Below are positions 4,776 to 33,924 of a DNA stretch of 36,663 bases, one piece after another. Each line of letters begins with the position of its first letter. The first letter of the stretch is position 1. Source of the stretch: Cyanophora paradoxa CCMP329 (Eukaryota > Plantae > Glaucophyta); the NCBI GenBank assembly GCA_004431415.1, contig QPMI01000422.1, positions 1-36,663 of the forward strand. The letters run 5' to 3'. Below the pieces are notes generated by a model. It did not search any database and had not been told where the DNA came from. It was given only the letters and a program-made list of their open reading frames with translations. The position numbers and the translations under genes were made by a program.

Positions 4776-5487
4776 TCAGCGCCGGATCGCTGCGGCGCAC
4801 GCCTCGAGCAGCGTCTCGACGCTGGCCGCTTTGCGCTTGTTCTGCACGGGGTACGGGATGGCCGTGCCCGCAAAGACGCCCCTCAGATCCTCCGGGATCT
4901 CCCCCGCTGGCGGAGCGGTCAGCCAGGCCTAGATCTAGAGCTAGGCGGGGGCTGGGGCGGGATGGCGGGGCGGACCGGAGGGGAAGGGGCAGGAGCTCTC
5001 GTCGTGGAGGAGGAGGATGGTCTTCTTGGCCCTGGCCGCGTGCCGGACCTCGCCCAGCGCGCCCGCGCTCTTCAGCACGTCTGCCCGGGCCGGGCCGGGG
5101 TCGACGTCAGAAGGGAAGCAACGTTAACGGAGCAGAGCATTTGAGAGGCAGGAGAGCGATCGATCGCGGGGGCGGGGGCGGACCCTGGGAGATGACGAGG
5201 ACGAAGTTCGCGGACGCGTCGATGGTCCGCTCGAGCCTGCGGGCCGGGGCGACGCGGCCGGTCAGCAGCGAGGCCAAAGGGCGCCCGCTGGACGAGGCGA
5301 GGGCCGAGGCCGGGGCGGGGGCGCACTCGGGCAGCTCGGGGCGGGGGTCGCCGGCGGGGAGGAAGACGCGGAGGCCCGGGCGGGTCTGCTCCAGGTGCAG
5401 CTTCAGGGCGGGGGCGAGCTGGCCCGCGCTGGCGCCGTGCGAGAGGAACACGTCGTAGGCGTACTGCCCCCCCGGCCCATCGCCCCC
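4776..5487 (-). CDS. Host TIR (Toll/IL-1R) domain exons, the 3' end of the LRR-TIR gene
   Basis: Splicing GT-AG introns 5081-5183 and 4907-4975 gives YAYDVFLSH...LKLHLEQTRPGLRVFL...TIDASANFVLVISQDVLKSAGALGEVRHAARAKKTILLLHDESSCPFPSAGEIPEDLRGVFAGTAIPY...IRR* (stop 4776-4778). This matches the TIR betaA YDVFLSH motif, betaC FVLVIS and the alphaC glutamate. Confidence 0.8.
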
Positions 5488-5699
5488 TACAGAAGATCAG
5501 AACTCGAAAGATATCATCGAAGCAGGCTCGGCCCAAAATGGATGCGCGTACCAGAGGCGCAGGCCGAAGAGGACGAGGGCCCGGCTGCCGGCTGCAGCGA
5601 GGACTAGGGGTGAGGGGCCGCGGAAGCAACACAGAGCGGCGGGCTCACGGCAGAACTGCCAGCGGCAGCGGGGCGTTGGCGACGGCCAAGCCCCCTGCC

Positions 5700-6242
5700 T
5701 CATCGCCTGCCTCCCCTCCCCTCCCCCTCCTCCTCCTCCTCGCTGTAGTAGTCCATCGGGTTCTTCTCTGTGTTGAGGCAGCGGAGCTTCGGGAGCCGCA
5801 TGACCTCCTTCGGCAGCTCCTCCAGCTCGTTGGCGTACAGGTCCAGCTCCTCGAGGCTCGCGAGCCGCCCCAGCGCCCGCGGCACCGAGCGCAGCCCGTT
5901 CCGCGCCAGGTCAAGCTTCCTCAGGTTCGCGAGCTGCCCGATCTCCCGCAGCGCCGAGCTCTCCAGCCAGTTGTCGCTCAACTCTAGCTCCCGCAGGCTG
6001 GAAAGGCGCCCGATCTCCCTCGGAAGCCTCCTCAGCTCGTTGCCCCACAACGAGAGCCTCTCCAGGTTCGTCAGCTTCGCGAGCTCCGCCCCGGGGATGT
6101 GCTGGAGCTTGTTCCGGCTGAGGTCCAGCACGCGGATGTTCTTGGGTCCCACCTGCTCGATCACGGCTGTCGGCCACGCCGTCAGCCCCTCGCTTGACAT
6201 GTTCAGCTCCGTCTCGGTGGGATTCCAGTATTTCCACCGGGC
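5700..6242 (-). CDS. Host LRR block 2 (exon of the LRR-TIR gene)
   Basis: LxxLxLxxNxLxxLPxEIGxL repeats. Joined in phase 0 to the upstream LRR exon by intron 6243-6326 (GAT|GTGAGT...TTGAC...ATGCAG|GCC). The frame beyond the TGA at 5700 is in phase with the downstream linker and TIR exons, and the stop sits among G-runs. Confidence 0.8.
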   Translation of the reverse strand, partial: ARWKYWNPTETELNMSSEGLTAWPTAVIEQVGPKNIRVLDLSRNKLQHIPGAELAKLTNLERLSLWGNELRRLPREIGRLSSLRELELSDNWLESSALREIGQLANLRKLDLARNGLRSVPRALGRLASLEELDLYANELEELPKEVMRLPKLRCLNTEKNPMDYYSEEEEEGEGRGGRR

Positions 6243-6326
6243 CTGCATGCGGAGTTGTCAATTGTAATTATGCATAAACCAGCCGGAAACCCCCGTAGTG
6301 AATGAAGGGAACAAGGCAGAACTCAC

Positions 6327-6936
6327 ATCTATGGTGGCGCCTGCAGGCGGCAGCTGCGGTTTGCAATAAGAATCGTGAGGCCTAGGGTACGTGAAAAAAC
6401 ACGGCGTGATCACCGACGCGTTCGAGGCGGCGAGGGATCGGAGGAAGGCAATCAGATCTTTGCGCGCATAGTTGGGCAGGCCTGTGAATGGGTTGCTGCT
6501 CTCTCGTATCCACCTCAGGCTTGCAATGCGGCCAAGCTCCGCCGGAAGAGTCAACAGCTTGCCGCCAAGGACGTGCAACTCCTCCAAGTTTGCCAGGCGC
6601 CCGATTTCCGACGGCAGTTCTGTAATCTCGAGATAGTCCAGGTTTAGAATTTTTAGGCTTGCGAGCTGCCCCATCTCCGGTTGCAGTGCTGTCAGCTTGT
6701 TTTGTCCCATCGAGAGTTCCACCAGGTTTGCAAGCTGCCAAATCTCAAGCGGCAGCACCGTCAGCTCGTTGCTGCTGATGTCGAGCTTCTTCAGGTGCAA
6801 GAGCCGCCCGATCTCCCGTGGCAGCGTCGCCAGCTTGTTTCTGCGCACGTAGAAGATCTGCAGATTCACAAGCTGGCCGATCTCCGCTGGTAGAGCCGTC
6901 AACTCGTTGTCATAAATGTAGAGCTGCTCCAGGCTC
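6327..6936 (-). CDS. Host LRR block 1, 3' half (downstream of the viral insertion)
   Basis: SLEQLYIYDNELTALPAEIGQLVNLQ... about 6 LRRs plus cap. The first ~36 aa of ORF 6258..7043 are viral TIR read-through. Confidence 0.88.
6931..6936 (+). repeat. Left target-site duplication AGGCTC
   Basis: Identical hexamer directly flanks the right end at 32655-32660. Confidence 0.95.
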
Positions 6937-7793
6937 GCTCGCATGGGGGTAGCCCCCACCAATTGCGCGACCTTCCCGCAACCATTTTCAATAAGCACAT
7001 TTTCAGCATCACGAATCTCAGTCACAAAATCACAAATTCGCACTGAGCCACATTGTATTTTTCAAACATCTAACCCTTCCTTACTGAAACCAATCACGAA
7101 ACCCTTTCATTCTTCATTTTTCTAATTCCTTACCATTCCCAGTAAGCCCTTTAACTTTCCCCCGATCTCTCAGTAAGGACAGTAAGACCCTCATTTTTAC
7201 GAAATGTTCCCGATCGTTTCCGGACTGTTTTCAGTTACCCAAATTGAAAAATCAAGGTGAGCCCCACCAATTAAACAAGTGATCCCCACTTAAAGACTTC
7301 CAGTTAATATACTGTAACAATGGCAAGCAATCAAGTAAATCTACCTGAGACTAAGCGGTGCAATGTTTGCGATAAGGTAAAACCGGCATCGAGTTATGCA
7401 TTGCAAAAGCGTAGCTCAGGGAATGTTACTTTAAATTGGAGATGCAAAGTCTGCGACCGAGACTATCACAATTACCTTTATCATTTCGTGTTAAAAACGC
7501 GTCCGAAAATCGAAGTGCAATCGAAGATATGCTCGCACTGCAAGATTGAGAAGCTTGCAAGTGAGTTTAATAAAAGACAAAGAACGAAGGATGGTCTCAA
7601 CTATCAATGCCGAGAGTGTTATAGCAAAACTCGTAAGAGTTAAACCGAATTTCATTTTATATTTTTTAAAGCGAGTATGTGCATGAGCAAGCATGCCGAA
7701 AATGCCCACCTGCACAAACTCGCGACTTCAATCGAAATGTTCCATTTAATGCACTGGAACCACTCGCGCCCCGCCACTATGCAAGATACATGC
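6937..7793 (+). repeat. Left terminal inverted repeat (857 bp)
   Basis: Reverse complement of 31799-32654. By eye I found one substitution (6980) and three 1-bp homopolymer indels. Confidence 0.95.
7320..7643 (+). CDS. TIR-encoded tandem zinc-finger protein, 107 aa (copy 1)
   Basis: Two KxCxxCxxxKxxxx(Y/F)...CKxC/CREC modules of the kind found in viral DNA-binding and endonuclease-associated proteins. Identical protein at 31949-32272. Confidence 0.8.
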   Translation: MASNQVNLPETKRCNVCDKVKPASSYALQKRSSGNVTLNWRCKVCDRDYHNYLYHFVLKTRPKIEVQSKICSHCKIEKLASEFNKRQRTKDGLNYQCRECYSKTRKS

Positions 7794-8041
7794 AAACTAC
7801 ATGCGAGTTATATGAAAAATAAAAATTCAGTCATGTATATATTTCGTATATATGTCCGAACCTCCGTGTATGTGATCCCGCGCAACTTTGAATTTTTGTG
7901 TTTTTTATGTTTTTTTCGCATATGACGACATATACATATATATACCGGCGTCACCGACATATTCGGGGTCATCACATCGCGGAGATTCCGAAACATATAG
8001 CATGCGATAGCGTAGTATTTTAACGTGGTCTGATCGGAATG

Positions 8042-8467
8042 TGATAAATCAGCTGATAGGGCTGATCGTAGTGTGATAAATCAGCTGATCGCCATCTGAT
8101 AAATCAGCTGATAGGGCTGATCGTAGTGTGATAAATCAGCTGATAGGGCTGATCGTAGTGTGATAAATCAGCTGATCGCCATCTGATAAATCAGCTGATA
8201 GGGCTGATCGTAGTGTGATAAATCAGCTGATCGCCATCTGATAAATCAGCTGATAGGGCTGATCGTAGTGTGATAAATCAGCTGATAGGGCTGATCGTAG
8301 TGTGATAAATCAGCTGATCGCCATCTGATAAATCAGCTGATAGGGCTGATCGTAGTGTGATAAATCAGCTGATCGCCATCTGATAAATCAGCTGATAGGG
8401 CTGATCGTAGTGTGATAAATCAGCTGATAGGGCTGATCGTAGTGTGATAAATCAGCTGATCGCCATC
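8042..8467 (+). repeat. Higher-order tandem array (ABAAB)x3
   Basis: A=TGATAAATCAGCTGATAGGGCTGATCGTAGTG (32 bp, 9 copies); B=TGATAAATCAGCTGATCGCCATC (23 bp, 6 copies). The 142-bp super-unit occurs three times exactly. Confidence 0.95.
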
Positions 8468-8493
8468 TGATAAATCGTGATGTGATCGCAGGA

Positions 8494-8670
8494 GATAGTA
8501 TAGCGGGATAGTATAACCCAGGGGTGATAGTATAGCCGGATAGTATAACCACGGGCGATAGTATAGCGGGATAGTATAACCCCAGGGGGCGATAGTATAG
8601 CCGGATAGTATAACCCCGGGCGATAGTATAGCGGGATAGTATAACCCCATAGCCGGATAGTATATAGTAT
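8494..8670 (+). repeat. Second tandem array, about five 31-34-bp units GATAGTATAGC(G/C)GGATAGTATAACC...GGG(C/T)
   Basis: Units start at 8494, 8526, 8557, 8591 and 8622, followed by a partial unit. GCGG and GCCG alternate. Confidence 0.9.
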
Positions 8671-9084
8671 CACCAGGCATAATAGCCGCCGGTATTTATT
8701 TACCGGAACACCGGCGATCGCGACTTCGCGGAGACCCCTTCCGTTTTTCCCGCATAACTTTGGACAGGAAGCGATCTCGGCGCGCTCTCAATTGCTACGT
8801 GCTCGTAACTTGCTTCCGGGCACGATGGTGCTACTTTGACTAGCTTACGCAACCGTGACGCGAAACCCCAGTTCGCCAACGGCACAAGTGCCCGAAAACC
8901 GAGGTGTCCGCTACATTCTGAGCGCCGGCGCGCGTTCCCCTGAGGCTCCACTAGTCATACTTTGCATCCGTGTGCGTATAGAGTAGTTCTACGCTAATAC
9001 AAAGCGGCGCGGTCAGATTCGCAAAGGGCGCGATTTGGCGGCTACGAAACCACATAGCTCACAAAAATATCGACTTAAATAATA

Positions 9085-9477
9085 ATGGATTCCAAATACC
9101 GCGGCTACCACGTTATGCTCGACTATATAACCGACCCGTTCACCGAGTCCCCGGAGGCATGCGCCGAGTGGATCACAGCGAACCTATCGCAATATATCAC
9201 AGATCGCAATATGCGCATCGTGCACCAGCACACATGCATTTTCGATGGCTCTATTTCCCCTCCCGGTTTCGCGATTGGCTTTCTATTAGATGAGTCGCAT
9301 GCCACAGCTCACTCTTATAGCGACCAGGGGCTATTAGCGATCGATATCTTTACATGCGGCTCAAATGCCGAAGCGAAGACAATGGGTATAGCACAGGACA
9401 TTAACGAACTCATACAAGAAAGGCTGAAAGTTCGAAAGTGGGACTTACAGGTCGAGCAAAGGTTCCCAATTTCATAA
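9085..9477 (+). CDS. speD: Prokaryotic-type (short, class 1b) pyruvoyl-dependent S-adenosylmethionine decarboxylase proenzyme, 130 aa
   Basis: GYHVMLD N-terminus, PPGFAIGFLLD-E|SH-ATAHSY self-cleavage site and AIDIFTCG motif match the SpeD/SpeH family. Confidence 0.88.
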   Translation: MDSKYRGYHVMLDYITDPFTESPEACAEWITANLSQYITDRNMRIVHQHTCIFDGSISPPGFAIGFLLDESHATAHSYSDQGLLAIDIFTCGSNAEAKTMGIAQDINELIQERLKVRKWDLQVEQRFPIS

Positions 9478-9502
9478 AAAATGAAAAAAGCGACATATAC
9501 AT

Positions 9503-9817
9503 TTAATGTTCCTTGATCGGAAACTTGCCCATTAGCGGGTGATCGAGACCCATGACATACCAGGATTTCATAACGGGATCCCAGCGGGCTCTCTCAGCCT
9601 TCGCTTGATCCTTAAATTCATAAGGAATATCGAGGTAAACCTTCACGTTTCTTTGATACACTTGCTCATAGCTTAGAGTTTTGAACTGAGAGCATAGGGG
9701 GTGATCTTTCTTCGTGACATACCAGCATGAATTCTCACGATCCCACTTTCCACCGAGGGATTTCGCAACGTCTTTTTTATCAAACGGAATATCAATAAAA
9801 TGCTTTTCACCCTCCAT
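9503..9817 (-). CDS. Tandem DUF5710-like domain protein, 104 aa
   Basis: Two repeats, IDIPFDKKDVAKSLGGKWDRENSCWYV and LDIPYEFKDQAKAERARWDPVMKSWYV. Confidence 0.8.
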   Translation of the reverse strand: MEGEKHFIDIPFDKKDVAKSLGGKWDRENSCWYVTKKDHPLCSQFKTLSYEQVYQRNVKVYLDIPYEFKDQAKAERARWDPVMKSWYVMGLDHPLMGKFPIKEH

Positions 9818-9830
9818 CTCTTTTATATTT

Positions 9831-9850
9831 ACCGGAGAAAATAATTTCGG
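9831..9850 (-). promoter_or_regulatory. Conserved upstream motif (minus strand CCGAAATTATTTTCTCCGGT) before the DUF5710 gene
   Basis: 20-bp exact copy at 15597-15616; 13 bp separate it from the ATG at 9817. Confidence 0.65.
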
Positions 9851-9856
9851 GGTTTG

Positions 9857-11239
9857 TTATGAACGAGATGACCGAAGAATGCGCGTAGTAGGGGCTGTGT
9901 AGCTTGCGCTCTGATTCTTGAATGATTTATACCACCGCTGACTGTTTACCTCTGAGAGCTTCTCGGTTCCCGCAATCGTTAATTTAGCGAGCTCCCTCAG
10001 CGCCCTCTTTGTCTTTTCTGCGCGATCTTCCAATAAAGCCCCTTTCGGAACACTTGCGGCGACATCTATGCCTTCTTTTTGAACCTGCCGGATCGAAGCT
10101 GCCTCTACATCAGCCGCTAAAATAGCGTTGCCTGATGGCTCGACCACAGCTTCGACCTCTGTAATGATCTGCAATTCGTGCGGCTTAAAAAGCTTCGGCA
10201 TTACGTTCCCCGCTGCATCTTGCACCTCTATCGCGTTTCCTCTCCTTCCCGCAATTTTGTAGACCTCTCGGCTATACCTTTGGGTCGCTCCTTTATCAAA
10301 CTTTGATCTCGGCAATAATACACGGACGTGGAGACCCGGCTTAAAGTCGCTGAATATATCCTTTACGATTGTGTTCTTCTTTGAAATAATAGCCGCTCGG
10401 ATCCGCTCCATATCAGAAAGCTTAACATCTGCGGGTTTCATTCCTATGGTTCTGTGAATGGTGTTATTATAATTGAAAACGAAGTCGTCCAATTTGTCCA
10501 TGAATCGAACTGTATTATAAGCGACACAGTAATTGTTTATCATCGTTTTTAAGGTCAAATGAAAGCGATTCATTATTCCCAGAGAAGTGTGATCTCCGAC
10601 CTGTTTAAAGCGGTGCTCTATTCCATTATTTTTTACGACCTCCTGAAACTCCTTCGCAATGAATTCCGAACCGTTATCTGTCTCCAATCGAATCATCGGA
10701 GCCGGGAGCTCTGTGAGCATCTCCGCAAAAGCGGCGGCAACACTTGCGCCCTCCTTATTCTTTAACTTCTTGGCATATGCTTTTCGGCTTGTCATCTCGA
10801 TGAGAGTAAGGACTGCAATGTAGCCGGAATTATAGCTGCCATATGAGAGATAAAAGATGAGATCGGCTTGGTAGCACCACGGCGGGGCTGTGATGGGAAT
10901 AAAAGCGGTTTGGGTCGGTGCGGGGGGCTTCTTGTTGATCTGCATAAATTCTTGTTTCGCTGCGACATCTTGCACTTCTTTCAGTGTGAGGGTCTTGTCC
11001 TCTTTTCTCAGCTCTTCGTACAATGCCGATGGGTTCTTAAAACCTGTTTTTGGGTCATACATGCGGCGCACGATCTTAGAGGACGGGTTAGCAATGCTAA
11101 AAGGAACATCTCCTAATAAATTTGATTTTGCTTGGCGTTTTGTGATTTTTTGGGGGACTTGCTCAGTTTCAGGAACCGCGATAGGTAGTATGGTGGTCTC
11201 TGTCTCCTCGCCCGCTACCCTTCTAACGATCCGTGACAT
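9857..11239 (-). CDS. Polinton-type retroviral-like (rve) integrase, 460 aa
   Basis: YQADL (D1), ETDNGSEF (D2), LGIMNRFHLTLK (N in place of E, 35 residues after D2), YNNTIHRTIGMKP, and C-terminal FKPGLHVRV...FDKG...YSREVYKI typical of Polinton integrases. Confidence 0.93.
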   Translation of the reverse strand: MSRIVRRVAGEETETTILPIAVPETEQVPQKITKRQAKSNLLGDVPFSIANPSSKIVRRMYDPKTGFKNPSALYEELRKEDKTLTLKEVQDVAAKQEFMQINKKPPAPTQTAFIPITAPPWCYQADLIFYLSYGSYNSGYIAVLTLIEMTSRKAYAKKLKNKEGASVAAAFAEMLTELPAPMIRLETDNGSEFIAKEFQEVVKNNGIEHRFKQVGDHTSLGIMNRFHLTLKTMINNYCVAYNTVRFMDKLDDFVFNYNNTIHRTIGMKPADVKLSDMERIRAAIISKKNTIVKDIFSDFKPGLHVRVLLPRSKFDKGATQRYSREVYKIAGRRGNAIEVQDAAGNVMPKLFKPHELQIITEVEAVVEPSGNAILAADVEAASIRQVQKEGIDVAASVPKGALLEDRAEKTKRALRELAKLTIAGTEKLSEVNSQRWYKSFKNQSASYTAPTTRILRSSRS

Positions 11240-11257
11240 TCTTCTAATTAAACCTGT

Positions 11258-14200
11258 TTATTTTTTGCTGCAATTGCACCCGTGATGCACGAGCTGGCAA
11301 TTGTCTTTAAGATGTGGGCGCCTGTTGTTTATGCGATCCACGACGAGCTTGTAATTCGGATCTTGTGGCTCAGTCGGAATAGGAAGGGAACAGAGCGCAC
11401 AGGCGCCCTTCTGTTGCTTCTTGCGCTCTAATATCCACTCCGGCGTAATATAATCCGCCTCATCGAAATCGCGCCCGGCACGCTGATCCTGGCATTTGTA
11501 ACCGCGGATCTTCCCTTTCAGATACTCGATGTAGTCACTCTTTCCTTGGAACTTGTGAATCGGTGTATAAATCAGCACAGTAGACAGATCGCGGTTACGA
11601 GTGAGCGCGGTATAGAACCATTCGCGAGTGGTATAGCGGAACGTAGCCTCACAAATGACAATGCCCGAATCAAGTGTGAGACCTTGCGTTGAATGACCTG
11701 TTCCTGCATAAGGGAGAGAAAAATGTTCTAACATCGCGCACGGAACCTCAAACGTGACACCATCGAAAACGTCCGTTAATGTGACCATTTGCTTTGTGAT
11801 TTTGGTGATTCGATAGGTGTAATTCGTGTATGCGTTTATAGACTCGCCCTCAGACCGCGAAATGCGTAGATACTTGCGGCAAACGACTTCCAAACCCTTG
11901 TAGAATTTGATGCCATTGACCTCTACGGTTGGGATATTTACTTTGCGTCTATCGTGCATCAGTTTGTTGTAGGCTAAGGTCATTTCGTTTCTGTAAGCGA
12001 TGCCAAAGTAGCCGTCGGGAATAGCGCTTAGATCATTAATTGTCGGCAACCCGTATTTCGAGATAATCTGTGCGGCTTCCAGTCCGTTCTCGAAGAGATC
12101 CTCTTTAATCGCCCGAATTAATTCACGGTCTGTCTCCTTCTTGTGCCGCTTGTTAATGCGTAGACTCAGGACGTTAGGGAACATGCTCTGCACAGCGCGC
12201 TTATAGTAGCCCTTGCGATCAGAAACCGATAGCTCATCATTAATCGGTTCGTTCTGATAGGTATCGCCATTAGCCAAATATTTGATATCCGGATAGCGAT
12301 CGATAAACGACTTGATCTTAGCGAGATCTTTTACGGAATACGCGAATATCTCGTCGAACATAATGTGACTGAACTCGGAGACGAACGCCCTCTGGTCTTT
12401 TTCGCTCATAGCCTCTTCGTAGGTCTGATCATTTGAGACACGGATCCCGAGAACATTATATAAAGTACGAACGGTAATATTCTCGATTCCGCGGACTTTG
12501 AGAGAGTCCCTCAGCTCCGCGCACTGTTTGTTATAGGGGCAAATAACTAAGCAATTCGACTTTTGAGATGCGAAACAGTTAATACCGAGTGTCGACTTTC
12601 CACTTCCGGGCATGTCAGCAAGGACAAGCATACGATTATGGAGCTTCGCAACCCAATTAAAGCACTCCGGATTAAATTCGTCCCTCAGCGAGAACCGGTT
12701 AATGAGTGTCTCGGGATCCTGAAATTCGAGAGTTACACCCCGTGGTGGGCGGAGTGCATTCTCAGGGCATCTTTTCCCGGGAATATAGCTGAATTTGCCC
12801 ATGTTCTCAAACGCATTTCGGTCGAACTCTTTCTTACTTGTCCATGAACCTTCGATATATAGGCAATCCGTTCTGATCCCGGCAACCTTGTGCCCGCGCG
12901 CTGTCAGGCGCTTGTATTGCGCAAACATATTGGCACGGTTGCGATCGTAAATATGAAAGTGGATAGGAAGGAATCCGTTAACGAGCTCGCGGTGGGAGCT
13001 GATCTTAACGAAATAGATGTGACCTTCGAATTCGCTAAGAGTTTTGACACGTTTCGAATTCTTAGGATTGAAAGTAAACACCTCTACTGTTCCTCCGCAT
13101 TCTTGGGCGAACCTCTCAGCCTCGGCACGGTTGTAGAACATTTTCGTGGATGTTTGCGAGTCTTGGAATTTGCCGAGCATTCCGATCTCTTTCACTAAAA
13201 TGTGCTTCTTATCTGTGGTTTGAATGTCACTTGAAAGTACTTTCTTCATCTCCGAGATCGAAGTATTGGGCACCAAATGCGAAGGCTCCGCGACCGCGAT
13301 AATCTCTATCTTGTCCTTTACGTCCGCCCAATGCATGGAGAGAGTGTAGCCTGTCATGAAATTATAACAGCGACCACTCACGGAAAATGCGCGATCCAGT
13401 ATAATTTCGATTCCATCAATCTTGCGAGACATGGCGGCATCATAATCAATATCCTCGTCGTCTGCGAAAGTTGCTTGCTCTCTCTCAAACGCAACGACAC
13501 GCACGTAGTAGATCGCGTATTCGAGAATATCGCTTCCCGCTTTAAAGGGAACGAAGTCATCAAACACATTGTATTTCGGAAGATATTGCATGCCTTTCAG
13601 TATCGAAGGGTAGCACTTCGCCATATCGACAGCTGTGTAGGTAGCTTTCGGGTTCGGCTTATAGAAATAGCCGCTTAGTGCGGATCGCTTGTAGTGCGTG
13701 AGAATTTCGCGCATATTCGGGCTGTAATGTGAGATATTCGTCGCATTTAGAAGCGACTCGCGGAATCCCTTCCCGATTTCACAGACCTTATTATAATACT
13801 CCTCTGTTTCGAAATCTTGCTCAATAAAGTGGTCTGTTGTGCGTGGATCTTTGATAGAGAACATCGAGCCATTAGCTTTGAATGTGATGCTGTCGATCTG
13901 TTTCGATGGTGTTAGCTTCACTGCGGGTTCATATCGCATTTTCAGGAACGTAAATAGAAGACCTTCCAGACCTTCGCGCCCAGTATACAGAATGCGGATG
14001 AAACTGCGCTCGTCGGGCGATAGTTTAAGTTGCGTGATCTTTAACAAATCCTTGGATGTGTGCGCGAAGATATCGTGAGTAAGACACGTCGGAATTTTAT
14101 AGAGTGCTAACGAAGAGGTCGACTTAGGAACATGATTATCGAGCTCTTCGACCTCCATCTTCGCCATGCGCATTTCGAGCGACTTGATGTTATCGTTGAA

Positions 14201-15574
14201 TATATAGATGTGCTTGTTGTGAATCATAAAGTGAATATTGCGGGGAAAGATGTTTTTGTTAATTGATTCCGCCGCGAATTTGTGTATTAACTTTCCGTCG
14301 ACATCAAAGACGCGGAAGCCTGTCTGAATTCTCTTACAGAATTTCTCGATATGGCGGAGGGTGAGAGCCAGAGAGTCGCCAGGTGTGCGTTCGCGACCGT
14401 GAAAGAATTTATAGAGACCGTCGTAGGACATAGTTAAGTCAGTATATCGCGGTTTTGGCGCGTCCTGACACTTCTTAATGGACGCTCCCCATGTGGAGAT
14501 GATCATATCGTATCCGCAAGCGTTAGATGTAGATGATTTGGGAAGCTCAATAACATCTTCGAACTCAGACGCGTTTGGATTTAATGTGTAGTCTGTGAAT
14601 TTGCTCATAATCGCGGTGCATCGCATGCTGTCCGTAAGCTCCTCATCCAGAAACGCATAGCGATTGCCAGGGATAGCACCGGCTCCGTCATCTTCGACAC
14701 CTTCGTCCCCATCGATCACGACCTCATGAACAGTTATAAAGGCATCATCGATACTGCCGCCAAGATCATCAAATATTAGGCGTAGTCTTTTCTGTTCCTC
14801 GGTTGGTGGTGTCTTAAAGAAGAACACCTCGTATGCTTCGCCGAAAGTTTTAAGTCCTACTGCCAATTCATCGTAGTTTTTGAGTAAATAGAAGATTGAT
14901 TCGCTCTCATGCCAATCATGACGAACTTGACCCGGTCTAATTATAATTTGAGACATTCTATCCATTTTCGCCAGAGCAAAGCTTCGCAACACACTCACCG
15001 AAACTGTCTCTCTTATCTTGCGGTAGGTGACAAAGGTTCTGTCTGGCATATTTACTTCGGGAATTCCGGGAATAACAAATACCTCCGACGACCGAGCACC
15101 GGATCCAGGTCCCCATAGATTGAACGTAATTGTTGCGAGAGTTTCCGGATCGTATGCGGCGATTGGATCGAGAATAGTGCGTTTAATTGCATCCTCTACC
15201 GTTTTTAGTTTACCTCTCTGCTGCTTTGCTTCGAGCTTCGCTTCTTTCGCTCGTTTCTGTTCTTGCTTGCGATCGAAGCGCTGTAAACGCTTAGCCTCTT
15301 GTTCTTTTTGCTTTTGCTTTTCTATGTTAACTTGGGTGCGAGCGGCGCGCTTTTCTTTCCGCTCTGCCCTGCGGAAAACGCGGGGATTAATGATGCCATT
15401 CAGAGTATCCCGAATGTCGATCAGCGTTTGGAGCTTGGGCTTCCGATTCATTGTGTTGTGCATCGCCCAATGCGCCTGTTCTTCGGTTAGCAAATCCTGA
15501 CTCAATCCCTGCATAATGTATCCGATAATTTCATCCCGAACATTGTTAGCGATTCTGTTGGTTGCGCGCGGCAT
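11258..15574 (-). CDS. Fusion of divergent family-B DNA polymerase, SF1 (RecD/Pif1-like) helicase and C-terminal HNH/His-Me finger domain, 1438 aa
   Basis: PolB motif A AVDMAKCYPS, motif B KKHILVKEIGMLGK, motif C GIRTDCL. Helicase Walker A MPGSGKS, Walker B MFDEIF, GDTYQN, TGHSTQGLTL, YTALTR. C-terminus CALC...VDRINNRRPHLKDNCQLVHHGCN. Confidence 0.88.
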   Translation of the reverse strand: MPRATNRIANNVRDEIIGYIMQGLSQDLLTEEQAHWAMHNTMNRKPKLQTLIDIRDTLNGIINPRVFRRAERKEKRAARTQVNIEKQKQKEQEAKRLQRFDRKQEQKRAKEAKLEAKQQRGKLKTVEDAIKRTILDPIAAYDPETLATITFNLWGPGSGARSSEVFVIPGIPEVNMPDRTFVTYRKIRETVSVSVLRSFALAKMDRMSQIIIRPGQVRHDWHESESIFYLLKNYDELAVGLKTFGEAYEVFFFKTPPTEEQKRLRLIFDDLGGSIDDAFITVHEVVIDGDEGVEDDGAGAIPGNRYAFLDEELTDSMRCTAIMSKFTDYTLNPNASEFEDVIELPKSSTSNACGYDMIISTWGASIKKCQDAPKPRYTDLTMSYDGLYKFFHGRERTPGDSLALTLRHIEKFCKRIQTGFRVFDVDGKLIHKFAAESINKNIFPRNIHFMIHNKHIYIFNDNIKSLEMRMAKMEVEELDNHVPKSTSSLALYKIPTCLTHDIFAHTSKDLLKITQLKLSPDERSFIRILYTGREGLEGLLFTFLKMRYEPAVKLTPSKQIDSITFKANGSMFSIKDPRTTDHFIEQDFETEEYYNKVCEIGKGFRESLLNATNISHYSPNMREILTHYKRSALSGYFYKPNPKATYTAVDMAKCYPSILKGMQYLPKYNVFDDFVPFKAGSDILEYAIYYVRVVAFEREQATFADDEDIDYDAAMSRKIDGIEIILDRAFSVSGRCYNFMTGYTLSMHWADVKDKIEIIAVAEPSHLVPNTSISEMKKVLSSDIQTTDKKHILVKEIGMLGKFQDSQTSTKMFYNRAEAERFAQECGGTVEVFTFNPKNSKRVKTLSEFEGHIYFVKISSHRELVNGFLPIHFHIYDRNRANMFAQYKRLTARGHKVAGIRTDCLYIEGSWTSKKEFDRNAFENMGKFSYIPGKRCPENALRPPRGVTLEFQDPETLINRFSLRDEFNPECFNWVAKLHNRMLVLADMPGSGKSTLGINCFASQKSNCLVICPYNKQCAELRDSLKVRGIENITVRTLYNVLGIRVSNDQTYEEAMSEKDQRAFVSEFSHIMFDEIFAYSVKDLAKIKSFIDRYPDIKYLANGDTYQNEPINDELSVSDRKGYYKRAVQSMFPNVLSLRINKRHKKETDRELIRAIKEDLFENGLEAAQIISKYGLPTINDLSAIPDGYFGIAYRNEMTLAYNKLMHDRRKVNIPTVEVNGIKFYKGLEVVCRKYLRISRSEGESINAYTNYTYRITKITKQMVTLTDVFDGVTFEVPCAMLEHFSLPYAGTGHSTQGLTLDSGIVICEATFRYTTREWFYTALTRNRDLSTVLIYTPIHKFQGKSDYIEYLKGKIRGYKCQDQRAGRDFDEADYITPEWILERKKQQKGACALCSLPIPTEPQDPNYKLVVDRINNRRPHLKDNCQLVHHGCNCSKK

Positions 15575-15596
15575 CTCTATTAGTTCTTTTAAAATA

Positions 15597-16157: not shown

Positions 16158-16165
16158 TTACTATA

Positions 16166-29900: not shown

Positions 29901-31438
29901 CGAATACATTACAGCCAATAACACCATGTTGTGGGATCGGTCAATTACCAACGAATGCGCCACTTTATTTGGAACAATGGTTTTTCCACATTCGCAAATA
30001 TATACGATAAACGTTATTATGTCGGGAAATGCTTACGCAGAGCATATTATGCAATGGATGAAACAGTAATACAAAGATTGCAAAACTTGTTTCAGAACAG
30101 CGTGTCAATAAAGACCAGTATATACAAACAGGGAAATTCTCAAAATCTTTGACAATCACAGGTCCGGGTCATTGGGGATTTCACAGGTTGTCACATTCCC
30201 GAAAGCATTTGCGGAAGCCCAGAAGTGGTTCTCATCTGATACAGGATATAATGGTGTCATATGTATTGTATATGGTGTCACAAGTTCCACAACAACAACA
30301 TTTACTATTCATGCAACAATTTCGGCAGAACATGCATTCAATGAAAGCATGGACTTTTCACTATCAAATGAGTTATATAGCAACAGGGAAGATGGTAGCA
30401 TAATATTCTCACGTAATAATAATAATATTCTCACGTATATAAAGAACAATCAAAAGATGTCGACAGTATTCACGCCTGTCTTCTCCTGAGCGCCTCAGCT
30501 GTCCACAACGTGCAACACACTATATATGATCTAAGTGAGTCATTCCCTTCGACTGAGACAGCGAAAACGATTCTTTCAATGAGACCTCCATTCTCAGAGT
30601 CAAAGAACTCAGAGCTGACAAGGCTGGTGGAATCGTTAAAGCTACTGAACTGATCGTATCGAATCGACCCGCAATCTCTTCGGGGCTGGTCACCAAAGAA
30701 ATCTATATGAAGGTCAACAGGATTCCAAACGGCTTTAATCCGGCTGATAGGAATTCGGCGCTTTTCAGTTATTATGGTGGTGCCTGGATCGGATGGACTG
30801 AGTGTGAATGGGAGTGCAACAATTACTGGAAGCCTTTCAGCTTCGGGTGGATTCACTGGTTTACTCACAGCAAGTGGTGGATTAAACGATTCTATGATAC
30901 TGTGGGGCAACTGATAATTTTACGATAAAGAGAAACGGGGCAAACTGTTGCTTCTACATATTCAACAGGTGTGTCTCCAAATGATTCGTATGGTTTAACA
31001 ATAAATGGGAGTAAATGCTATCTTGCTCTTCCAAACCACCCCCGTTTCTGTGTTGCACTAACAGCTCCAATCGCTACAAACGGAACCATTGGTAACTGGA
31101 ATTATACATTTCTAAATCATGGAAACCATCTAGCAACATCAACAGGCATCTTCACAGCACCTGTTTCAGGTCACTACAAGTTCATCTTCTCAGGAGTAAC
31201 AACAGCAAATAATGTTAATACACAGGTTATCCTGCGACAAAGTAACCTTACAACTCAACTTATTGCACATTCTCCTGGACTTGGATCACCACTGAGTAGA
31301 TCTATTGGGTTTAATTTTAGTGTTAATATGGGAGCGGGAGATACTGTGAGGTTAGATCTTTATGGTGGTGGATTGGATTCAGCAGGAACACCGGCGATGT
31401 ATACTGTGTGGTCTGGTGAATTAATTTCTGCAACATAG
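26957..31438 (+). CDS. Phage-tail-fibre-like protein B ending in a C1q/TNF-like head domain; multiply frameshifted in this sequence
   Basis: ATG at 26957 after an AT-rich spacer. Repeats HTHTKSEITDF, HLWEHITNRPLTFPPDPHTH and FATVATTGNYDDL. Intact C1q domain NHGNHLATSTGIFTAPVSGHYKF...MGAGDTVRL...TVWSGELI (30971-31438). Confidence 0.6.
28696..29125 (+). repeat. Internal tandem duplication (~224-bp unit) in fibre gene B
   Basis: Both units carry GGTGATGTGCATGC...CCTGTTGTCCACCTTGGTGCTGAATATGTATTAGATCCAA. A more diverged copy (PVVHTGREFILGDNTP) lies near 27390-27460. Confidence 0.8.
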
Positions 31439-31447
31439 AATAAAAGA

Positions 31448-31709
31448 ATGTCGAACATCTACCAAGTGTTCTAACTGACACTGGAAACTGGGAATGGAAT
31501 ACTGTGCCTACTCTGTTCAGGATTGGATCGATAATATGGCTCATAATAGGGCGAGAATCGCGATTGATGAGATTGTGGACAAAGAAGTTAAATCGTGTAT
31601 TGCCGCTGGAATTCCGATTCCACTCACAAAGGAAGCGATTGTGGAGCAAGCATTTAATCGGGGGACTGTTCGAAAGGCAAGCGAAATTCCTGTAAGTGCT
31701 CCTATGTAA
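31448..31709 (+). CDS. Small fibre-associated protein (probable start 31448, with an indel before 31494)
   Basis: MEYCAYSVQDWIDNMAHNRARIAIDEIV... follows the C1q stop after 9 bp. From memory it resembles small proteins encoded after C1q tail fibres in tailed phages; unverified. Confidence 0.55.
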
Positions 31710-31798
31710 AGAATTCGAAGAATGAGAGAGGCGCAGCCGAGGCAGCTTGTCTGACGACTGGGTTTATTGTTATTTTTCATAGATCATGCATAAGAAAG

Positions 31799-32654
31799 GC
31801 ATGTATCTTGCATAGTGGGCGGGGCGCGAGTGGTTCCAGTGCATTAAATGGAACATTTCGATTGAAGTCGCGAGTTTGTGCAGGTGGGCATTTTCGGCAT
31901 GCTTGCTCATGCACATACTCGCTTTAAAAATATAAAATGAAATTCGGTTTAACTCTTACGAGTTTTGCTATAACACTCTCGGCATTGATAGTTGAGACCA
32001 TCCTTCGTTCTTTGTCTTTTATTAAACTCACTTGCAAGCTTCTCAATCTTGCAGTGCGAGCATATCTTCGATTGCACTTCGATTTTCGGACGCGTTTTTA
32101 ACACGAAATGATAAAGGTAATTGTGATAGTCTCGGTCGCAGACTTTGCATCTCCAATTTAAAGTAACATTCCCTGAGCTACGCTTTTGCAATGCATAACT
32201 CGATGCCGGTTTTACCTTATCGCAAACATTGCACCGCTTAGTCTCAGGTAGATTTACTTGATTGCTTGCCATTGTTACAGTATATTAACTGGAAGTCTTT
32301 AAGTGGGGATCACTTGTTTAATTGGTGGGCTCACCTTGATTTTTCAATTTGGGTAACTGAAAACAGTCCGGAAACGATCGGGAACATTTCGTAAAAATGA
32401 GGGTCTTACTGTCCTTACTGAGAGATCGGGGGAAAGTTAAAGGGCTTACTGGGAATGGTAAGGAATTAGAAAAATGAAGAATGAAAGGGTTTCGTGATTG
32501 GTTTCAGTAAGGAAGGGTTAGATGTTTGAAAAATACAATGTGGCTCAGTGCGAATTTGTGATTTTGTGACTGAGATTCGTGATGCTGAAAATGTGCTTAT
32601 TGAAAATGGTCGCGGGAAGGTCGCGCAATTGGTGGGGGCTACCCCCATGCGAGC
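31799..32654 (-). repeat. Right terminal inverted repeat (856 bp)
   Basis: Reverse complement of 6937-7793; ends ...GGGGGCTACCCCCATGCGAGC. Confidence 0.95.
31949..32272 (-). CDS. TIR-encoded tandem zinc-finger protein (copy 2)
   Basis: Same 107-aa sequence as 7320-7643. Confidence 0.8.
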   Translation of the reverse strand: MASNQVNLPETKRCNVCDKVKPASSYALQKRSSGNVTLNWRCKVCDRDYHNYLYHFVLKTRPKIEVQSKICSHCKIEKLASEFNKRQRTKDGLNYQCRECYSKTRKS

Positions 32655-32660
32655 AGGCTC
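32655..32660 (+). repeat. Right target-site duplication AGGCTC
   Basis: Matches 6931-6936. Confidence 0.95.
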
Positions 32661-33924
32661 ACGAGCCGCCCGATCTCCGGCGGTAACGTCGTCAACTTGT
32701 TGTCGTTCGCGTAAAAACACTTCAAATTTACAAGCTGCCCGATCTCCGGCGGTAGCAATGTAAGCTGGCCATGGTTGTCACTGAGATTCAGCTCCCTCAG
32801 ATTCCCGAGCCGCCCGATCTCTGCAGGGAGCGTTCTCAACTCGTTTCGCTGCAACAAGAGCTTTTCCAGGTTCCCAAGCTGGCCGATCTCTGGCGGTAGA
32901 GCTGCAAGCTTGTTGTTGTCCGCACACAGCGTCCTCAGGTTCGCCAGCCGCCCGATCTCCGGAGGCAGCGCTGCGAGCCTGTTCTTGCTGATATTTAGGT
33001 TCTTCAGGCCCACCAGCTGCCCAATCTCTGGAGGCAATAGTACAAATGAACAGCCGGTCACAGAAAACTCCTCCAGGTTCACAAGTCGACCGATTTCCAG
33101 GGGAAGCGCTGTCAACGGATTGCCATCTGCATGCAGCTTCTTGAGGTGTAAGAACAGTCCAATCTCCTCTGGAGAGCCGGCAACCCACTGCAGGCCACGT
33201 TCAGCTCCTCCAGATTCGCCAGTCCTGCGAGCGCCGCCCAGGTTCCGGTGTTGCTCGTAATCATGGATGAAAAGTACTTGAGGTTCAGCACACGGAGCAT
33301 CTTGAGCTGCACAAACTCAGGCGGCAGCTGGGATCCGTAAAATTCCAGGTCGAGCAGCTGCAAATTCACAAGCTGTCTGATCTCCGCTGGCAGTGATGTC
33401 AGCCCGTTGTGTCCCAACGAGAGCTCCACCAGGTTCACGAGCTTCCCGATCTCCGGAGGCAGCGCCGTGAGCTCGTTCCTGCTGACGTCGAGCTTCTTCA
33501 GGTGCGTGAGCCGCCCGATCTCCCGTGCAGCGCCGCCAGCTTGTTGCTGCGCACGTACAACTCCTCCAGGTTTACGAGCTGCCCGATCTCCGGCGGGTAG
33601 CGATGTGAGCTCGTTGTCGCTGGCGAGAAGCCGCCTGAGGCCCGCGAGCCGCCCGATCTCCGGCGGCAACGCCGTCAGCCGATCAATGAATATATCGCCC
33701 TCCACATTCAGCTCCTCCAGGTTCGCCAGCTTCGCGAGCTCGGCCCAAGGGACGCTCGTGGCCGAGCAGCTCTTGAGGTCCAGCACGCGGATGTTCTCAG
33801 GGCCCGCCCGCTCGATCGCCGCCGCTGCAGCTGCGGCCGACTGCGCGTTTGCCGTCGTGAGGACCAGCTTCCCCTCGCCGGCAATCCATGTCCAGCCATC
33901 GATATCGACGTCCCCCGCATGCAT
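32655..33924 (-). CDS. Host LRR block 1, 5' half, interrupted by the virus (start uncertain; several 1-bp indels)
   Basis: Repeated LPPEIGxLxNLxxLxxxxNxL. The N-cap IERAGPENIRVLDL parallels IEQVGPKNIRVLDL in block 2. Ends ...LPPEIGRLVSL at the TSD. Confidence 0.88.

What the first reader, a model, noticed from the sequence alone, without database searches (positions are those of the whole stretch)
4776..33924. The virus interrupts a host LRR-LRR-TIR immune-receptor-like gene, and the empty site is perfectly in frame
Seen: deleting 6937-32660 gives minus-strand ...GAG ATC GGG CGG CTC GTG AGC CTG GAG CAG CTC TAC ATT = EIGRLVSLEQLYI, a seamless LRR. A phase-0 intron (6243-6326) links this to a second LRR block, and further short introns lead to a TIR domain that keeps the alphaC Glu (SAGALGEVRHA). 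The link across the TGA at 5700 needs three G-run deletions or readthrough, but the downstream phase already fits. Known: LRR sensors coupled to TIR domains drive innate immunity, and many TIRs are Glu-dependent NADases. Inference: a soluble TLR-like receptor (no TM or NB-ARC seen) in a protist, knocked out by a virus; either chance insertion in an expanded family or selected immune evasion.
Basis: partly seen in the sequence, partly recalled or inferred. Interest (0 to 1): 0.82.

Follow-up and report, generated by a model that had tools for sequence, protein, structure and literature searches.

The report
Virus-like element splits algal LRR–TIR gene
A 25.7-kb polinton-like virus genome sits inside an open leucine-rich-repeat reading frame of a glaucophyte alga, at a locus that likely encodes one soluble LRR–LRR–TIR immune-type receptor; the hit is most likely a chance insertion, so it is a neat but single example.

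Summary
A 25,718-bp element (6937-32654) with about 857-bp terminal inverted repeats, a 6-bp target duplication (AGGCTC), an rve integrase, an A32-type packaging ATPase and a capsid-like ORF sits inside an LRR reading frame. Removing it plus one duplication copy restores a seamless 23-residue LRR register.

Short-read contigs show five homopolymer errors in the window. Three are in the upstream half, and once corrected the pre-insertion LRR block is an unbroken 625-codon ORF.

The TGA at 5700 is probably a sixth artefact of this kind. A gene model from a sister contig (P0006) reads two more G there and fuses LRR block 2 to the TIR domain through two extra introns. Two paralogues (P0003, P0004) are LRR-TIR and LRR×3-TIR. 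All carry Cyanophora paradoxa labels.

The TIR domain is SARM1-like (profile E 1.3e-10), and its invariant Glu aligns with SARM1 E642.

Still open:
- **LRR1-LRR2 intron:** unverified, with mixed evidence.
- **RNA:** no RNA data could be laid.
- **Empty allele:** none was seen in seven runs.
- **Targeting:** nothing supports targeting of immune genes.

Verdict: a real polinton-like virus insertion in an LRR(-LRR)-TIR locus, most likely by chance. Interest is moderate.

The parts
32661..33924 (-). LRR block 1, N-terminal part (ATG 33924 to the insertion point). It is 421 codons after three read-supported single-base corrections.
   Evidence: Pfam LRR_14 7.9e-22 and LRR_8. Corrections at 33170, 33526 and 33595 in 4 of 4 runs. 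Translation.
32655..32660 (.). Target site duplication, copy 2 (+ strand AGGCTC)
6937..32654 (.). Integrated polinton-like virus genome, 25,718 bp, GC about 0.40-0.49 against about 0.70 in the host flanks
6937..7793 (+). Left terminal inverted repeat
   Evidence: 857/856 nt, 1 mismatch, 3 gaps. Read depth is about 50-130 times single copy.
31799..32654 (-). Right terminal inverted repeat
9857..11239 (-). rve-type integrase (460 aa)
   Evidence: Pfam rve 2.5e-13, 50.6 bits against a cut-off of 32.6
11258..15574 (-). 1438-aa ORF with a C-terminal superfamily-1 helicase-like region
   Evidence: Weak Pfam hits only, all below cut-off: UvrD_C_2 6.8e-4, Viral_helicase1, AAA_19
17607..18524 (-). A32-type genome-packaging ATPase
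   Evidence: Pfam Pox_A32 1.6e-10, 41.3 bits against a cut-off of 22.8
18532..19845 (-). Capsid-like ORF (437 aa), a candidate major capsid protein
   Evidence: ESM Atlas look-alikes score 0.98 to viral clusters in which 12-18% of members carry Capsid_N or Capsid_NCLDV; this is a lead only. One relative at 60% identity among 5.8e9 proteins.
21678..23170 (-). Patatin-like phospholipase, split into two overlapping ORFs
   Evidence: Pfam Patatin 2.5e-12 and 7.9e-6
6931..6936 (.). Target site duplication, copy 1 (+ strand AGGCTC)
6327..6936 (-). LRR block 1, C-terminal part, with a C-cap (NP...FLRSL) and a Pro-rich tail
   Evidence: Pfam LRR_8 1.1e-21. The frame is continuous with the upstream half.
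6243..6326 (-). Putative phase-0 intron (GTGAGT...CAG, 84 nt, GC 0.48) linking block 1 to block 2; unverified
   Evidence: Sequence; composition. No RNA data.
5649..6242 (-). LRR block 2 (N-cap W..GPKNIRVLDL, LRRs, acidic Gly/Glu linker). It holds the apparent TGA at 5700-5702.
   Evidence: Pfam LRR_8 7.7e-31. P0006 reads through with two more G. +G behind 5669 in reads.
5592..5648 (-). Intron (GTGAGC...CAG) used by model P0006; it contains the read-supported +G behind 5640
5552..5591 (-). 40-nt exon (PAAGPSSSSACAS)
5487..5551 (-). Intron (GTACGC...TAG, 65 nt) used by model P0006
5184..5486 (-). First TIR exon (YDVFLSH...). It includes a candidate extra 90-nt GT..AG intron at 5237-5326, which equals a 30-column insertion absent from the paralogues.
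5081..5183 (-). Intron (103 nt)
   Evidence: Models P0002 and P0006
4976..5080 (-). TIR exon carrying the invariant Glu (codon 5051-5049, in GALGEVRHA)
4907..4975 (-). Intron (69 nt)
   Evidence: Models P0002 and P0006
4776..4906 (-). Last TIR exon, with stop codon TGA at 4778-4776

Best explanation
A polinton-like virus genome (25,718 bp, about 857-bp terminal inverted repeats, 6-bp target duplication AGGCTC) is integrated inside an otherwise unbroken leucine-rich-repeat reading frame of a glaucophyte locus, and that frame is likely the first block of one soluble LRR-LRR-TIR gene whose SARM1-like TIR domain is predicted to be an NAD-cleaving effector.

Shown:
- The element's ends, its duplication, and its integrase, ATPase and capsid-like genes.
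- The seamless 625-codon LRR ORF once the element and five assembly errors are removed.
- The fusion of LRR block 2 to the TIR domain in a gene model of the same locus, and in two paralogues.
- The TIR fold, and the Glu at the SARM1 E642 position.

Inferred:
- The element's own rve integrase would have made the staggered 6-bp cut, with little target choice.
- The event is recent, because the repeats are near-identical and the split gene shows no decay.
- The insertion is fixed in this likely haploid culture strain.
- It would end the upstream LRR product five codons into the element and sever block 1 from block 2-TIR.
- The hit is most likely a chance insertion of a many-copy element in a gene-dense genome, not immune evasion.
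- The intact LRR2-TIR part may still be made, from ATG 6248 or from the in-frame ATG at 6944-6942 in the repeat end.
For: Element:
- Repeats and duplication.
- rve 2.5e-13, Pox_A32 1.6e-10.
- Capsid-like lead.
- GC drop to about 0.40-0.49.
- Published PLVs are 14-40 kb with TIRs, their rve integrases typically give 6-bp duplications, and a PLV of Cyanophora paradoxa is mentioned (PMC12220804, passages).

Host ORF:
- LRR Pfam hits on both flanks.
- Three upstream frameshifts corrected in 4 of 4 runs.
- 625-aa ORF with a continuous 23-residue register.

LRR2-TIR fusion:
- P0006, a 369-aa gene model from a sister contig, 98% identical over LRR block 2. It reads EEEEEGEGEGEAGDEAGG... where the window has EGRGGRR*, and it uses GT..AG introns present in the window.
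- The window under-calls G/C runs in 4 of 5 verified differences.
- No in-frame ATG exists for a stand-alone TIR that keeps the invariant YDVFLSH.
- Paralogues P0003 (LRR + TIR_2, 33.6 bits against 28) and P0004 (three LRR blocks + TIR_2, 31.7 bits).

TIR domain:
- Family profile against PDB gives SARM1 TIR at 1.3e-10 and C. elegans TIR-1 at 9.2e-10, with the invariant Glu opposite SARM1 residue 642.
- Foldseek hits to SARM1 for both models.

One gene:
- Only 10 nt lie between the stop at 6261-6259 and ATG 6248, while the mean intergenic distance in this species is 770 bp and the mean intron is 86 bp (PMC6704402, passages).
- An AT-rich intergenic-type sequence occurs upstream of 33924 but not between the blocks.

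Chance insertion:
- Repeat depth is about 50-130 times single copy, so there are tens of copies.
- The other flanks seen as loose ends at 6936 are not LRR-like.
Against: - No RNA evidence exists for any splice junction.
- GC3 is 0.74-0.77 across LRR block 1 but 0.94-1.0 across LRR2-TIR. Block 1 also has no intron in 1.9 kb, in a genome averaging 9.2 introns per gene. Both fit two genes, or a recently joined chimera.
- Block 2 begins MQARW, with an ATG four codons before the first Trp. An internal Met sits at the same spot (MGRGW, MGCGW) in the first blocks of the P0003 and P0004 models.
- Its N-cap aligns with the N-terminus of block 1 at 52% identity.
- The two extra G in 5701-5753 rest on one ab initio gene model; the read tool skipped that repeat.
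- Pfam TIR_2 on the locus's own protein stays under the cut-off (21.6 against 28 bits).
- Junction contigs reach only 29-30 nt into the repeat, one or two short of the tool's 31-letter rule for bridging.
- All runs appear to be one organism label, so the absence of an empty allele says nothing about populations.
Confidence: 0.6

Rival explanations
1. Two adjacent genes. The element would have hit a stand-alone, intron-less LRR-only gene that ends at TGA 6261-6259. The neighbouring LRR2-TIR gene starts at ATG 6248 and is untouched, so no TIR receptor is disrupted.
For: - GC3 steps from about 0.75 to about 0.95 exactly at the boundary.
- Block 1 is intron-less while LRR2-TIR has 5-6 introns.
- Block 2 starts MQARW, like the MGRGW and MGCGW seen in the first blocks of P0003 and P0004.
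- Model P0006 starts inside block 2.
Against: - Only 10 nt lie between the stop and the next ATG, against a mean intergenic distance of 770 bp.
- There is no AT-rich intergenic-type stretch between them.
- A canonical GTGAGT...CAG phase-0 interval spans the stop.
- P0004 shows that three blocks can be modelled in one protein.
- The internal N-caps of P0004 match block 2 at 53-55% identity.
Confidence: 0.35
2. Targeted or selected immune evasion. The element would integrate preferentially into, or be retained by selection in, LRR/TIR sensor genes because disabling the sensor helps the virus.
For: The gene hit belongs to a small family: 4 cluster representatives with E <= 1e-3 among 1.84e9. A random hit on that family is therefore a priori rare. 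The insertion is intact and recent.
Against: - This is a single case, picked after the fact.
- The loose-end consensus flanks listed at 6936, other than this copy's own junction, were X20 (1 contig), X1 and X4 (2 contigs each, same consensus) and X2 (3 contigs). None shows the LRR motif.
- Per the cited paper, rve integrases typically leave a 6-bp target duplication (PMC12220804); that they choose targets loosely is recalled, not from a call.
- The TIR effector part is left intact.
- LRR genes as a whole are abundant targets (one search shows how common this LRR type is).
Confidence: 0.05
3. Assembly artefact. The element would have been placed in this gene by a long-read mis-join, or the flanks would belong to two different LRR paralogues.
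For: The window's assembly has at least five indel errors. The element is high-copy, and LRR units repeat.
Against: - Short-read contigs at single-copy depth run from each host flank into the first 29-30 nt of the repeat. This holds in 3 of 3 DNA runs on the left and 4 of 4 runs on the right.
- There is a perfect 6-bp duplication, and the LRR register and frame continue across the joint.
- No contig joining the two flanks directly was listed. However, 23 and 22 loose-end rows, and 209 and 255 contig-piece rows, were not shown.
Confidence: 0.02

Closest known systems
SARM1 / C. elegans TIR-1 TIR domain (NAD+ hydrolase)
   Same: - A profile of the four family TIR domains hits SARM1 TIR at E 1.3e-10 (44.7 bits) and TIR-1 at 9.2e-10.
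- The predicted models match SARM1 structures (E 1.2e-8, TM to target up to 0.78 for the P0005 model; E 7.3e-6 for the P0006 model).
- The invariant Glu aligns with SARM1 residue 642, the position mutated in entry 7cm7 'E642A'.
   Different: - The N-terminal part is LRR blocks, not ARM plus tandem SAM domains, so there is no SAM octamer scaffold.
- The locus copy has SHGASAG where the paralogues have SHERDTAG and SARM1 has SYRRNSG.
- NADase activity is untested.
Animal Toll-like receptors and plant TIR-NB-LRR receptors
   Same: The logic of an LRR sensor coupled to a TIR signalling or effector domain.
   Different: - No signal peptide or transmembrane segment: the highest Kyte-Doolittle 19-residue mean is 1.3-1.44.
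- No NB-ARC or NACHT domain in any Pfam scan.
- The domain order is LRR to TIR, in a soluble protein built of repeated whole LRR blocks, each with its own N-cap and C-cap.
Endogenous polinton-like viruses and virophage-like elements of protists (such as the cryptophyte PLVs of PMC12220804)
   Same: - Size of 25.7 kb, and TIRs several hundred bp long.
- rve integrase with a 6-bp duplication.
- A32-type ATPase and a capsid-like ORF.
- Many copies per genome.
- Patatin-like and C1q-type accessory genes.
   Different: - No protein-primed PolB or maturation protease among the 20 ORFs scanned.
- The capsid-like protein has one relative (60% identity) in 5.8e9 proteins and none in IMG/VR.
- The right third (about 25.3-30.9 kb) has no ORF over about 100 aa.
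Bacterial LRR-(Roc-COR)-TIR_2 proteins
   Same: The LRR type (LPPEIGxLxxLxxLxLxxNxL) is 45-50% identical to LRRs of mostly bacterial and metagenomic proteins. Several of these also carry PF13676 TIR_2 (P0038, P0051, P0077, P0081, P0091, P0107).
   Different: - Most of those have a Roc-COR GTPase between or beside the domains.
- BLASTP of P0003 against P0107 aligned only the LRRs.
- The Cyanophora genes carry spliceosomal introns.

Membership tests
TIR domain (Pfam TIR_2 PF13676 / TIR PF01582) | Profile-HMM score at or above Pfam's gathering cut-off | tested here: inconclusive
   The locus's own models score below the 28-bit cut-off: P0006 21.6 bits and P0002 20.7 bits. They carry a 30-residue insertion that is probably an unspliced intron. 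Single exons gave 0 of 3 hits. Paralogues P0003 (33.6) and P0004 (31.7) pass; P0005 (27.2) just misses.
TIR domain | Sequence homology to a solved TIR domain | tested here: met
   Profile of A3 (4 sequences, the locus copy first) against PDB: 19 SARM1 or TIR-1 sequences at E 1.3e-10 to 7.9e-8, and plant RPV1, RUN1 and AT1G72930 at about 0.012.
TIR domain | Flavodoxin-like five-strand beta-alpha fold | tested here: met
   AlphaFold models have moderate confidence (P0006 TIR part pLDDT about 55-75; P0005 mean 71). They show alternating strands and helices. Foldseek finds SARM1, TIR-1, RPP1, RUN1 and RPS4 TIRs. The alignments behind the models were shallow (4-5 rows).
Catalytic (NADase) TIR domains | Glu at the position of SARM1 E642 | tested here: met
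   The invariant Glu (E107 of A3 row 1; window codon 5051-5049) is paired with the Glu of ...DWVHKEIVTAL... in the HMMER alignments. Counting from the reported ranges (chain 6-128 = residues 562-684) places it at 642. The catalytic role of E642 is established knowledge, recalled, and consistent with the entry title 'E642A'.
Catalytic (NADase) TIR domains | NAD+ cleavage activity | not testable with these tools
   Needs an enzyme assay.
Toll-like receptor | Signal peptide, extracellular LRR domain and a single transmembrane helix before the TIR domain | tested here: not met
   No 19-residue window reaches a Kyte-Doolittle mean of 1.6. The maxima are 1.3 (LRR1), 1.17 (P0006), 1.23, 1.34 and 1.44. 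So this is not a TLR; it only resembles one in logic.
NLR / TIR-NB-LRR | Central NB-ARC or NACHT NTPase domain | tested here: not met
   No such Pfam hit in the window's host ORFs or in P0002-P0006.
Polinton-like virus (PLV) | Terminal inverted repeats, and a short target duplication made by an rve integrase | tested here: met
   857/856-nt repeats, 6-bp AGGCTC duplication, rve 2.5e-13.
Polinton-like virus (PLV) | A32/FtsK-type packaging ATPase | tested here: met
   Pox_A32 1.6e-10, 41.3 bits against a cut-off of 22.8.
Polinton-like virus (PLV) | Double jelly-roll major capsid protein (and a penton protein) | tested here: inconclusive
   No Pfam hit on ORF 18532-19845. ESM Atlas look-alikes score 0.98 to viral clusters where only 12-18% of members carry Capsid_N or Capsid_NCLDV.
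Maverick/Polinton proper | [quoted passage not shown] | tested here: not met
   Neither appears among the Pfam hits of the 20 ORFs scanned. A large helicase ORF is present instead.

The most novel reading that the evidence does not exclude
The insertion is not neutral. Either this virus family is retained preferentially in LRR-TIR sensor genes, disarming a SARM1-like NADase suicide sensor of a basal alga. Or the repeat end, which supplies an in-frame ATG (6944-6942) reading out into the remaining LRR-LRR-TIR frame, drives a truncated receptor, so that the endogenous virus rewires a host immune gene.
Probability: 0.06. Interest if true: 0.8.

Novelty: new member of a known kind. Interest (0 to 1): 0.45.

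Why it matters
Endogenous polinton-like viruses are known to pile up in protist genomes, but what they hit is rarely looked at gene by gene. Here one copy has cleanly split a reading frame at a locus of a small, lineage-restricted LRR-TIR family. The TIR domain of that family is closest to the SARM1 NADase and keeps the catalytic-position Glu.

This gives two concrete handles:
- A soluble multi-block LRR-TIR architecture in a glaucophyte, which bears on how TIR-based immunity was built in the lineage leading to plants.
- A natural insertion allele for asking whether such a receptor matters during virus infection.

It is also a practical warning. In this window, 5 verified and probably 7 homopolymer errors create false frameshifts and a false stop. 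These broke the public gene model at this locus into a truncated 164-aa 'TIR' protein.

Tried and rejected
- **Whole genome:** none is held for this window, so other copies of the element and their flanks could not be surveyed.
- **RNA:** no RNA holder was listed. The one 'RNA?' run that was laid (X20) gave only a 216-nt contig over 6489-6704 at depth 2.3, plus contigs of other loci. No splice junction could be tested, and both read-laying runs are spent.
- **5701-5753:** this stretch was skipped as a repeat by the read tool, so the two G inferred there are not read-verified.
- **Pfam on single TIR exons:** 0 of 3 hits.
- **phmmer of TIR exon A against PDB:** only spurious pentatricopeptide matches.
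- **Uninterrupted or differently modelled copies:**
  - The C-terminal half of block 1 against proteins of 357-2000 aa found 1129 LRR proteins, best identity 50%, and no near-identical model.
  - Block 2 against proteins of 100-319 aa gave nothing at E <= 1e-40 among 1074 candidates.
- **Capsid-like ORF:** 1 relative in 5.8e9 proteins and none in IMG/VR.
- **PADLOC:** no hit for P0006, and weak TIR-effector hits for P0005 and P0003 only.
- **Earlier findings of this scan:** nothing by place or by sequence.
- **Linking the blocks by homology:** BLASTP of the tail of block 1 and the start of block 2 against P0004 aligned only LRRs and N-caps, not the linker. The resemblance PPAGATID-ARWK / PPAPASGTD-RRWK is by eye only.
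- **ATG 5480 as a start for a stand-alone TIR gene:** rejected. It is out of frame, and the G run beside it is confirmed by contigs of 3 runs.
- **Literature:**
  - No paper holds Cyanophora + 'TIR domain' + 'leucine-rich repeat' (0 hits).
  - 'Glaucophyte' + 'TIR domain' gave 4 papers. I read passages of one (PMC7145615), which says nothing on LRR-TIR in glaucophytes. The other three I saw as listings only.
- **Supplementary tables of PMC12220804** (PLV lists that may include this element) were not opened.
- **Complex prediction:** not used; no binding claim is made.

Full report
**What is in the window.**

Host-type DNA with GC about 0.70 flanks a 25.7-kb block with GC about 0.40-0.49. The block runs from 6937 to 32654. 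Its ends are inverted repeats that align over 857/856 nt with one mismatch (6980) and three single-base gaps. It is bracketed by a perfect 6-bp direct repeat, AGGCTC on the + strand, at 6931-6936 and 32655-32660.

Of 20 ORFs scanned against Pfam, the block encodes:
- an rve integrase (2.5e-13);
- an A32-type packaging ATPase (1.6e-10);
- a 1438-aa ORF with weak superfamily-1 helicase matches;
- a patatin-like phospholipase split over two ORFs;
- AdoMet_dc-, DUF5710- and C1q-like ORFs.

The 437-aa ORF next to the ATPase has no Pfam hit. Its language-model look-alikes are viral clusters in which 12-18% of members carry capsid families (score 0.98), which is a lead and not proof. It has a single relative (60% identity) among 5.8 billion proteins and none in IMG/VR. 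No PolB or protease was seen.

This is the anatomy of an integrated polinton-like virus. The literature describes such elements as 14-40 kb with long TIRs, says their rve integrases typically give 6-bp duplications, and mentions a PLV of Cyanophora paradoxa (PMC12220804, passages only).

**The observation.**

Removing 6937-32660 joins ...PPEIGRLV | SLEQLYIYDNELT... in one frame on the minus strand, and the 23-residue LRR period continues without a break. Both flanks give strong LRR Pfam hits. That the empty site is in frame follows automatically from a duplication-flanked insertion inside an ORF. The real content is that both flanks are one ORF.

As written, however, the upstream half has three frameshifts. 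I laid contigs of public short-read runs on it. In 4 of 4 runs (X1, X5, X12, X19) the contigs carry one more G behind 33170, one more G behind 33526 and one base fewer at 33595. These are exactly the three places where the LRR frame breaks. With these corrections the pre-insertion block is an unbroken 625-codon ORF from ATG 33924.

On the other flank, 3 of 3 DNA runs (X1, X2, X4) carry one more G behind 5640 and behind 5669. So the window's assembly has at least five G/C indel errors in about 3.8 kb of host sequence, and four of them are missing bases.

**Is the insertion real and fixed?**

In every DNA run laid, a contig at single-copy depth runs from the host flank into the first 29-30 nt of the repeat:
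- Left junction: 5754-6965 in X1, X2 and X4.
- Right junction: 32625-34400 in X5, X12 and X19, and 32625-32696 plus 32667-34223 in X1.

That is one or two letters short of the tool's 31-letter rule for bridging, as expected where a 31-mer graph meets a high-copy repeat. No contig joining the two flanks directly was among the rows shown, although some rows were not shown.

Depth over the repeats is about 50-130 times that of the flanks, so there are tens of copies. The species' genome paper argues for haploidy (PMC6704402, passages), which fits a single filled allele. All runs carry one organism label, so nothing can be said about other strains.

**What the host gene is.**

A phmmer search of the first TIR exon against 1.84 billion representatives found only four proteins. 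All are EukProt gene models labelled Cyanophora paradoxa.
- **P0002 (164 aa)** is the public model of this very locus.
- **P0006 (369 aa)** is its cluster mate from a sister contig. It is 98% identical to LRR block 2 and identical over the TIR-frame stretches that tblastn aligned. Where the window reads EEEEEGEGRGGRR-stop, it reads EEEEEGEGEGEAGDEAGG... and continues into the TIR. It does so through GT..AG introns that are present in the window at 5648-5592 and 5551-5487.

The difference is two G in two G runs within 5701-5753, the one stretch the read tool skipped. Three things make the TGA at 5700 most likely another assembly artefact: the window's proven habit of dropping G from runs, the lack of any in-frame ATG for a stand-alone TIR, and the architecture of the paralogues.

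The paralogues are P0003 (524 aa: N-cap, LRRs, C-cap, Pro/Ala linker, TIR) and P0004 (1115 aa: three complete LRR blocks, then TIR).

An alignment shows a 30-column insertion only in the locus copy. It coincides with a 90-nt GT..AG interval at 5326-5237. I therefore propose one more intron, which the public models retain.

**The TIR domain.**
- **Pfam TIR_2:** P0003 (33.6 bits) and P0004 (31.7 bits) pass the 28-bit cut-off. The locus models P0006 (21.6) and P0002 (20.7) do not.
- **Profile search:** a profile of the four TIR regions hits the SARM1 TIR domain at 1.3e-10 and C. elegans TIR-1 at 9.2e-10, with plant TIRs near 0.01.
- **Predicted structures:** the models have moderate confidence (pLDDT 66 for P0006 and 71 for P0005, with alignments of only 5 and 4 rows). 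They have the alternating strand-helix order and find SARM1, TIR-1, RPP1, RUN1 and RPS4 TIRs by Foldseek.
- **Catalytic-position Glu:** the family's invariant Glu (window codon 5051-5049) lies opposite the Glu of SARM1's ...DWVHKEIVTAL.... Counting from the reported ranges gives residue 642.
- **Other domains:** no NB-ARC, NACHT or transmembrane segment is present.

It is neither a TLR nor an NLR, and the nearest solved relative of the effector domain is SARM1.

**One gene or two?**

This matters because the element sits in block 1, not in LRR2-TIR.

For one gene:
- The stop at 6261-6259 and ATG 6248 are 10 nt apart, in a genome whose mean intergenic distance is 770 bp and mean intron 86 bp.
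- The interval 6326-6243 is GTGAGT...CAG, phase 0, with GC 0.48.
- AT-rich intergenic-type sequence lies upstream of 33924 but not between the blocks.
- P0004 is a multi-block model whose internal N-caps match block 2 at 53-55% identity.

For two genes:
- GC3 is 0.74-0.77 in both halves of block 1 and 0.94-1.0 in LRR2-TIR.
- Block 1 has no intron over 1.9 kb.
- Block 2 begins MQARW, like the MGRGW and MGCGW in the first blocks of P0003 and P0004.
- The two N-caps align at the same distance from their ATGs.

I put the single transcript at a little over one half.

**Consequence and cause.**

The upstream product would stop five codons into the element (...EIGRLVSLLAWG-stop). The frame leaving the other repeat end is open and has an in-frame ATG at 6944-6942. 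LRR2-TIR is intact.

The near-identical repeats and the undecayed halves point to a recent event. For targeting I found no support. The other insertion flanks that surfaced as loose ends at 6936 are unlike LRR sequence. The element is many-copy, and genes span 60% of this genome. One case chosen after the fact cannot show enrichment, and without the genome the survey could not be run.

**Verdict.**

This is a real, recent, fixed polinton-like virus insertion in an LRR frame, at a locus that encodes a SARM1-like LRR-TIR protein and probably an LRR-LRR-TIR one. It is a new member of known kinds rather than a new kind. The immune-evasion reading is unsupported.

Noticed in passing
window 5640, 5669, 33170, 33526, 33595 (and probably two G in 5701-5753): The window differs from short-read contigs by single G/C indels at five places, in all runs that cover them. 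Four are bases missing from the window. They create false frameshifts, and probably the false TGA at 5700.
   Followed up: yes
window 6942-6944 (minus strand), within the left repeat end: The last bases of the element supply an ATG in frame with the downstream LRR ORF (M-R-A-S-L-E-Q-L-Y...). The frame is open back to 7043. A truncated product is conceivable if the repeat has outward promoter activity.
   Followed up: partly
window 5754-6935 and 32661-33924 against 4776-6242: GC3 is 0.74-0.77 and there are no introns in LRR block 1. GC3 is 0.94-1.0 and there are 5-6 short introns in LRR2-TIR. The best database matches of block 1 are bacterial or metagenomic LRR proteins at 45-50% identity, so the block may have a different origin.
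   Followed up: partly
window 5237-5326 (minus strand): A 90-nt GT..AG interval, in frame either way, equals a 30-residue insertion found only in this copy's TIR domain. It is probably an intron that the public gene models retain.
   Followed up: partly
window 21678-23170 (minus strand): The element's patatin-like gene is split into two ORFs that overlap by 4 nt. This is either a real frameshift or another homopolymer error.
   Followed up: no
window 8030-8476 and 8494-8664: Subterminal tandem arrays inside the element: period 142 nt at 3.1 copies and 99% match, and period 31/65 nt.
   Followed up: no
window about 25300-30900: The right third of the element has no ATG ORF longer than about 100 aa. 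It may be non-coding, decayed, interrupted by introns, or damaged by indel errors.
   Followed up: no
window 6980: This is the only mismatch between the two repeat arms (A on the left, G-equivalent on the right). All read contigs show G here, so the A may be an assembly error or private to this arm.
   Followed up: partly
window 33472-33775: In each of four runs, one contig joins 33472 to 33775, skipping 302 nt, with only 21 letters on the shorter side. It is probably a paralogous LRR gene or a repeat-unit join, not a deletion allele.
   Followed up: no
window 34000-35000: AT-rich, palindrome-rich sequence (GC about 0.50) lies upstream of ATG 33924, with TATACGTATATATAC-like motifs. A short similar motif follows the TIR stop codon at 4776. 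It looks like this genome's intergenic signature.
   Followed up: no
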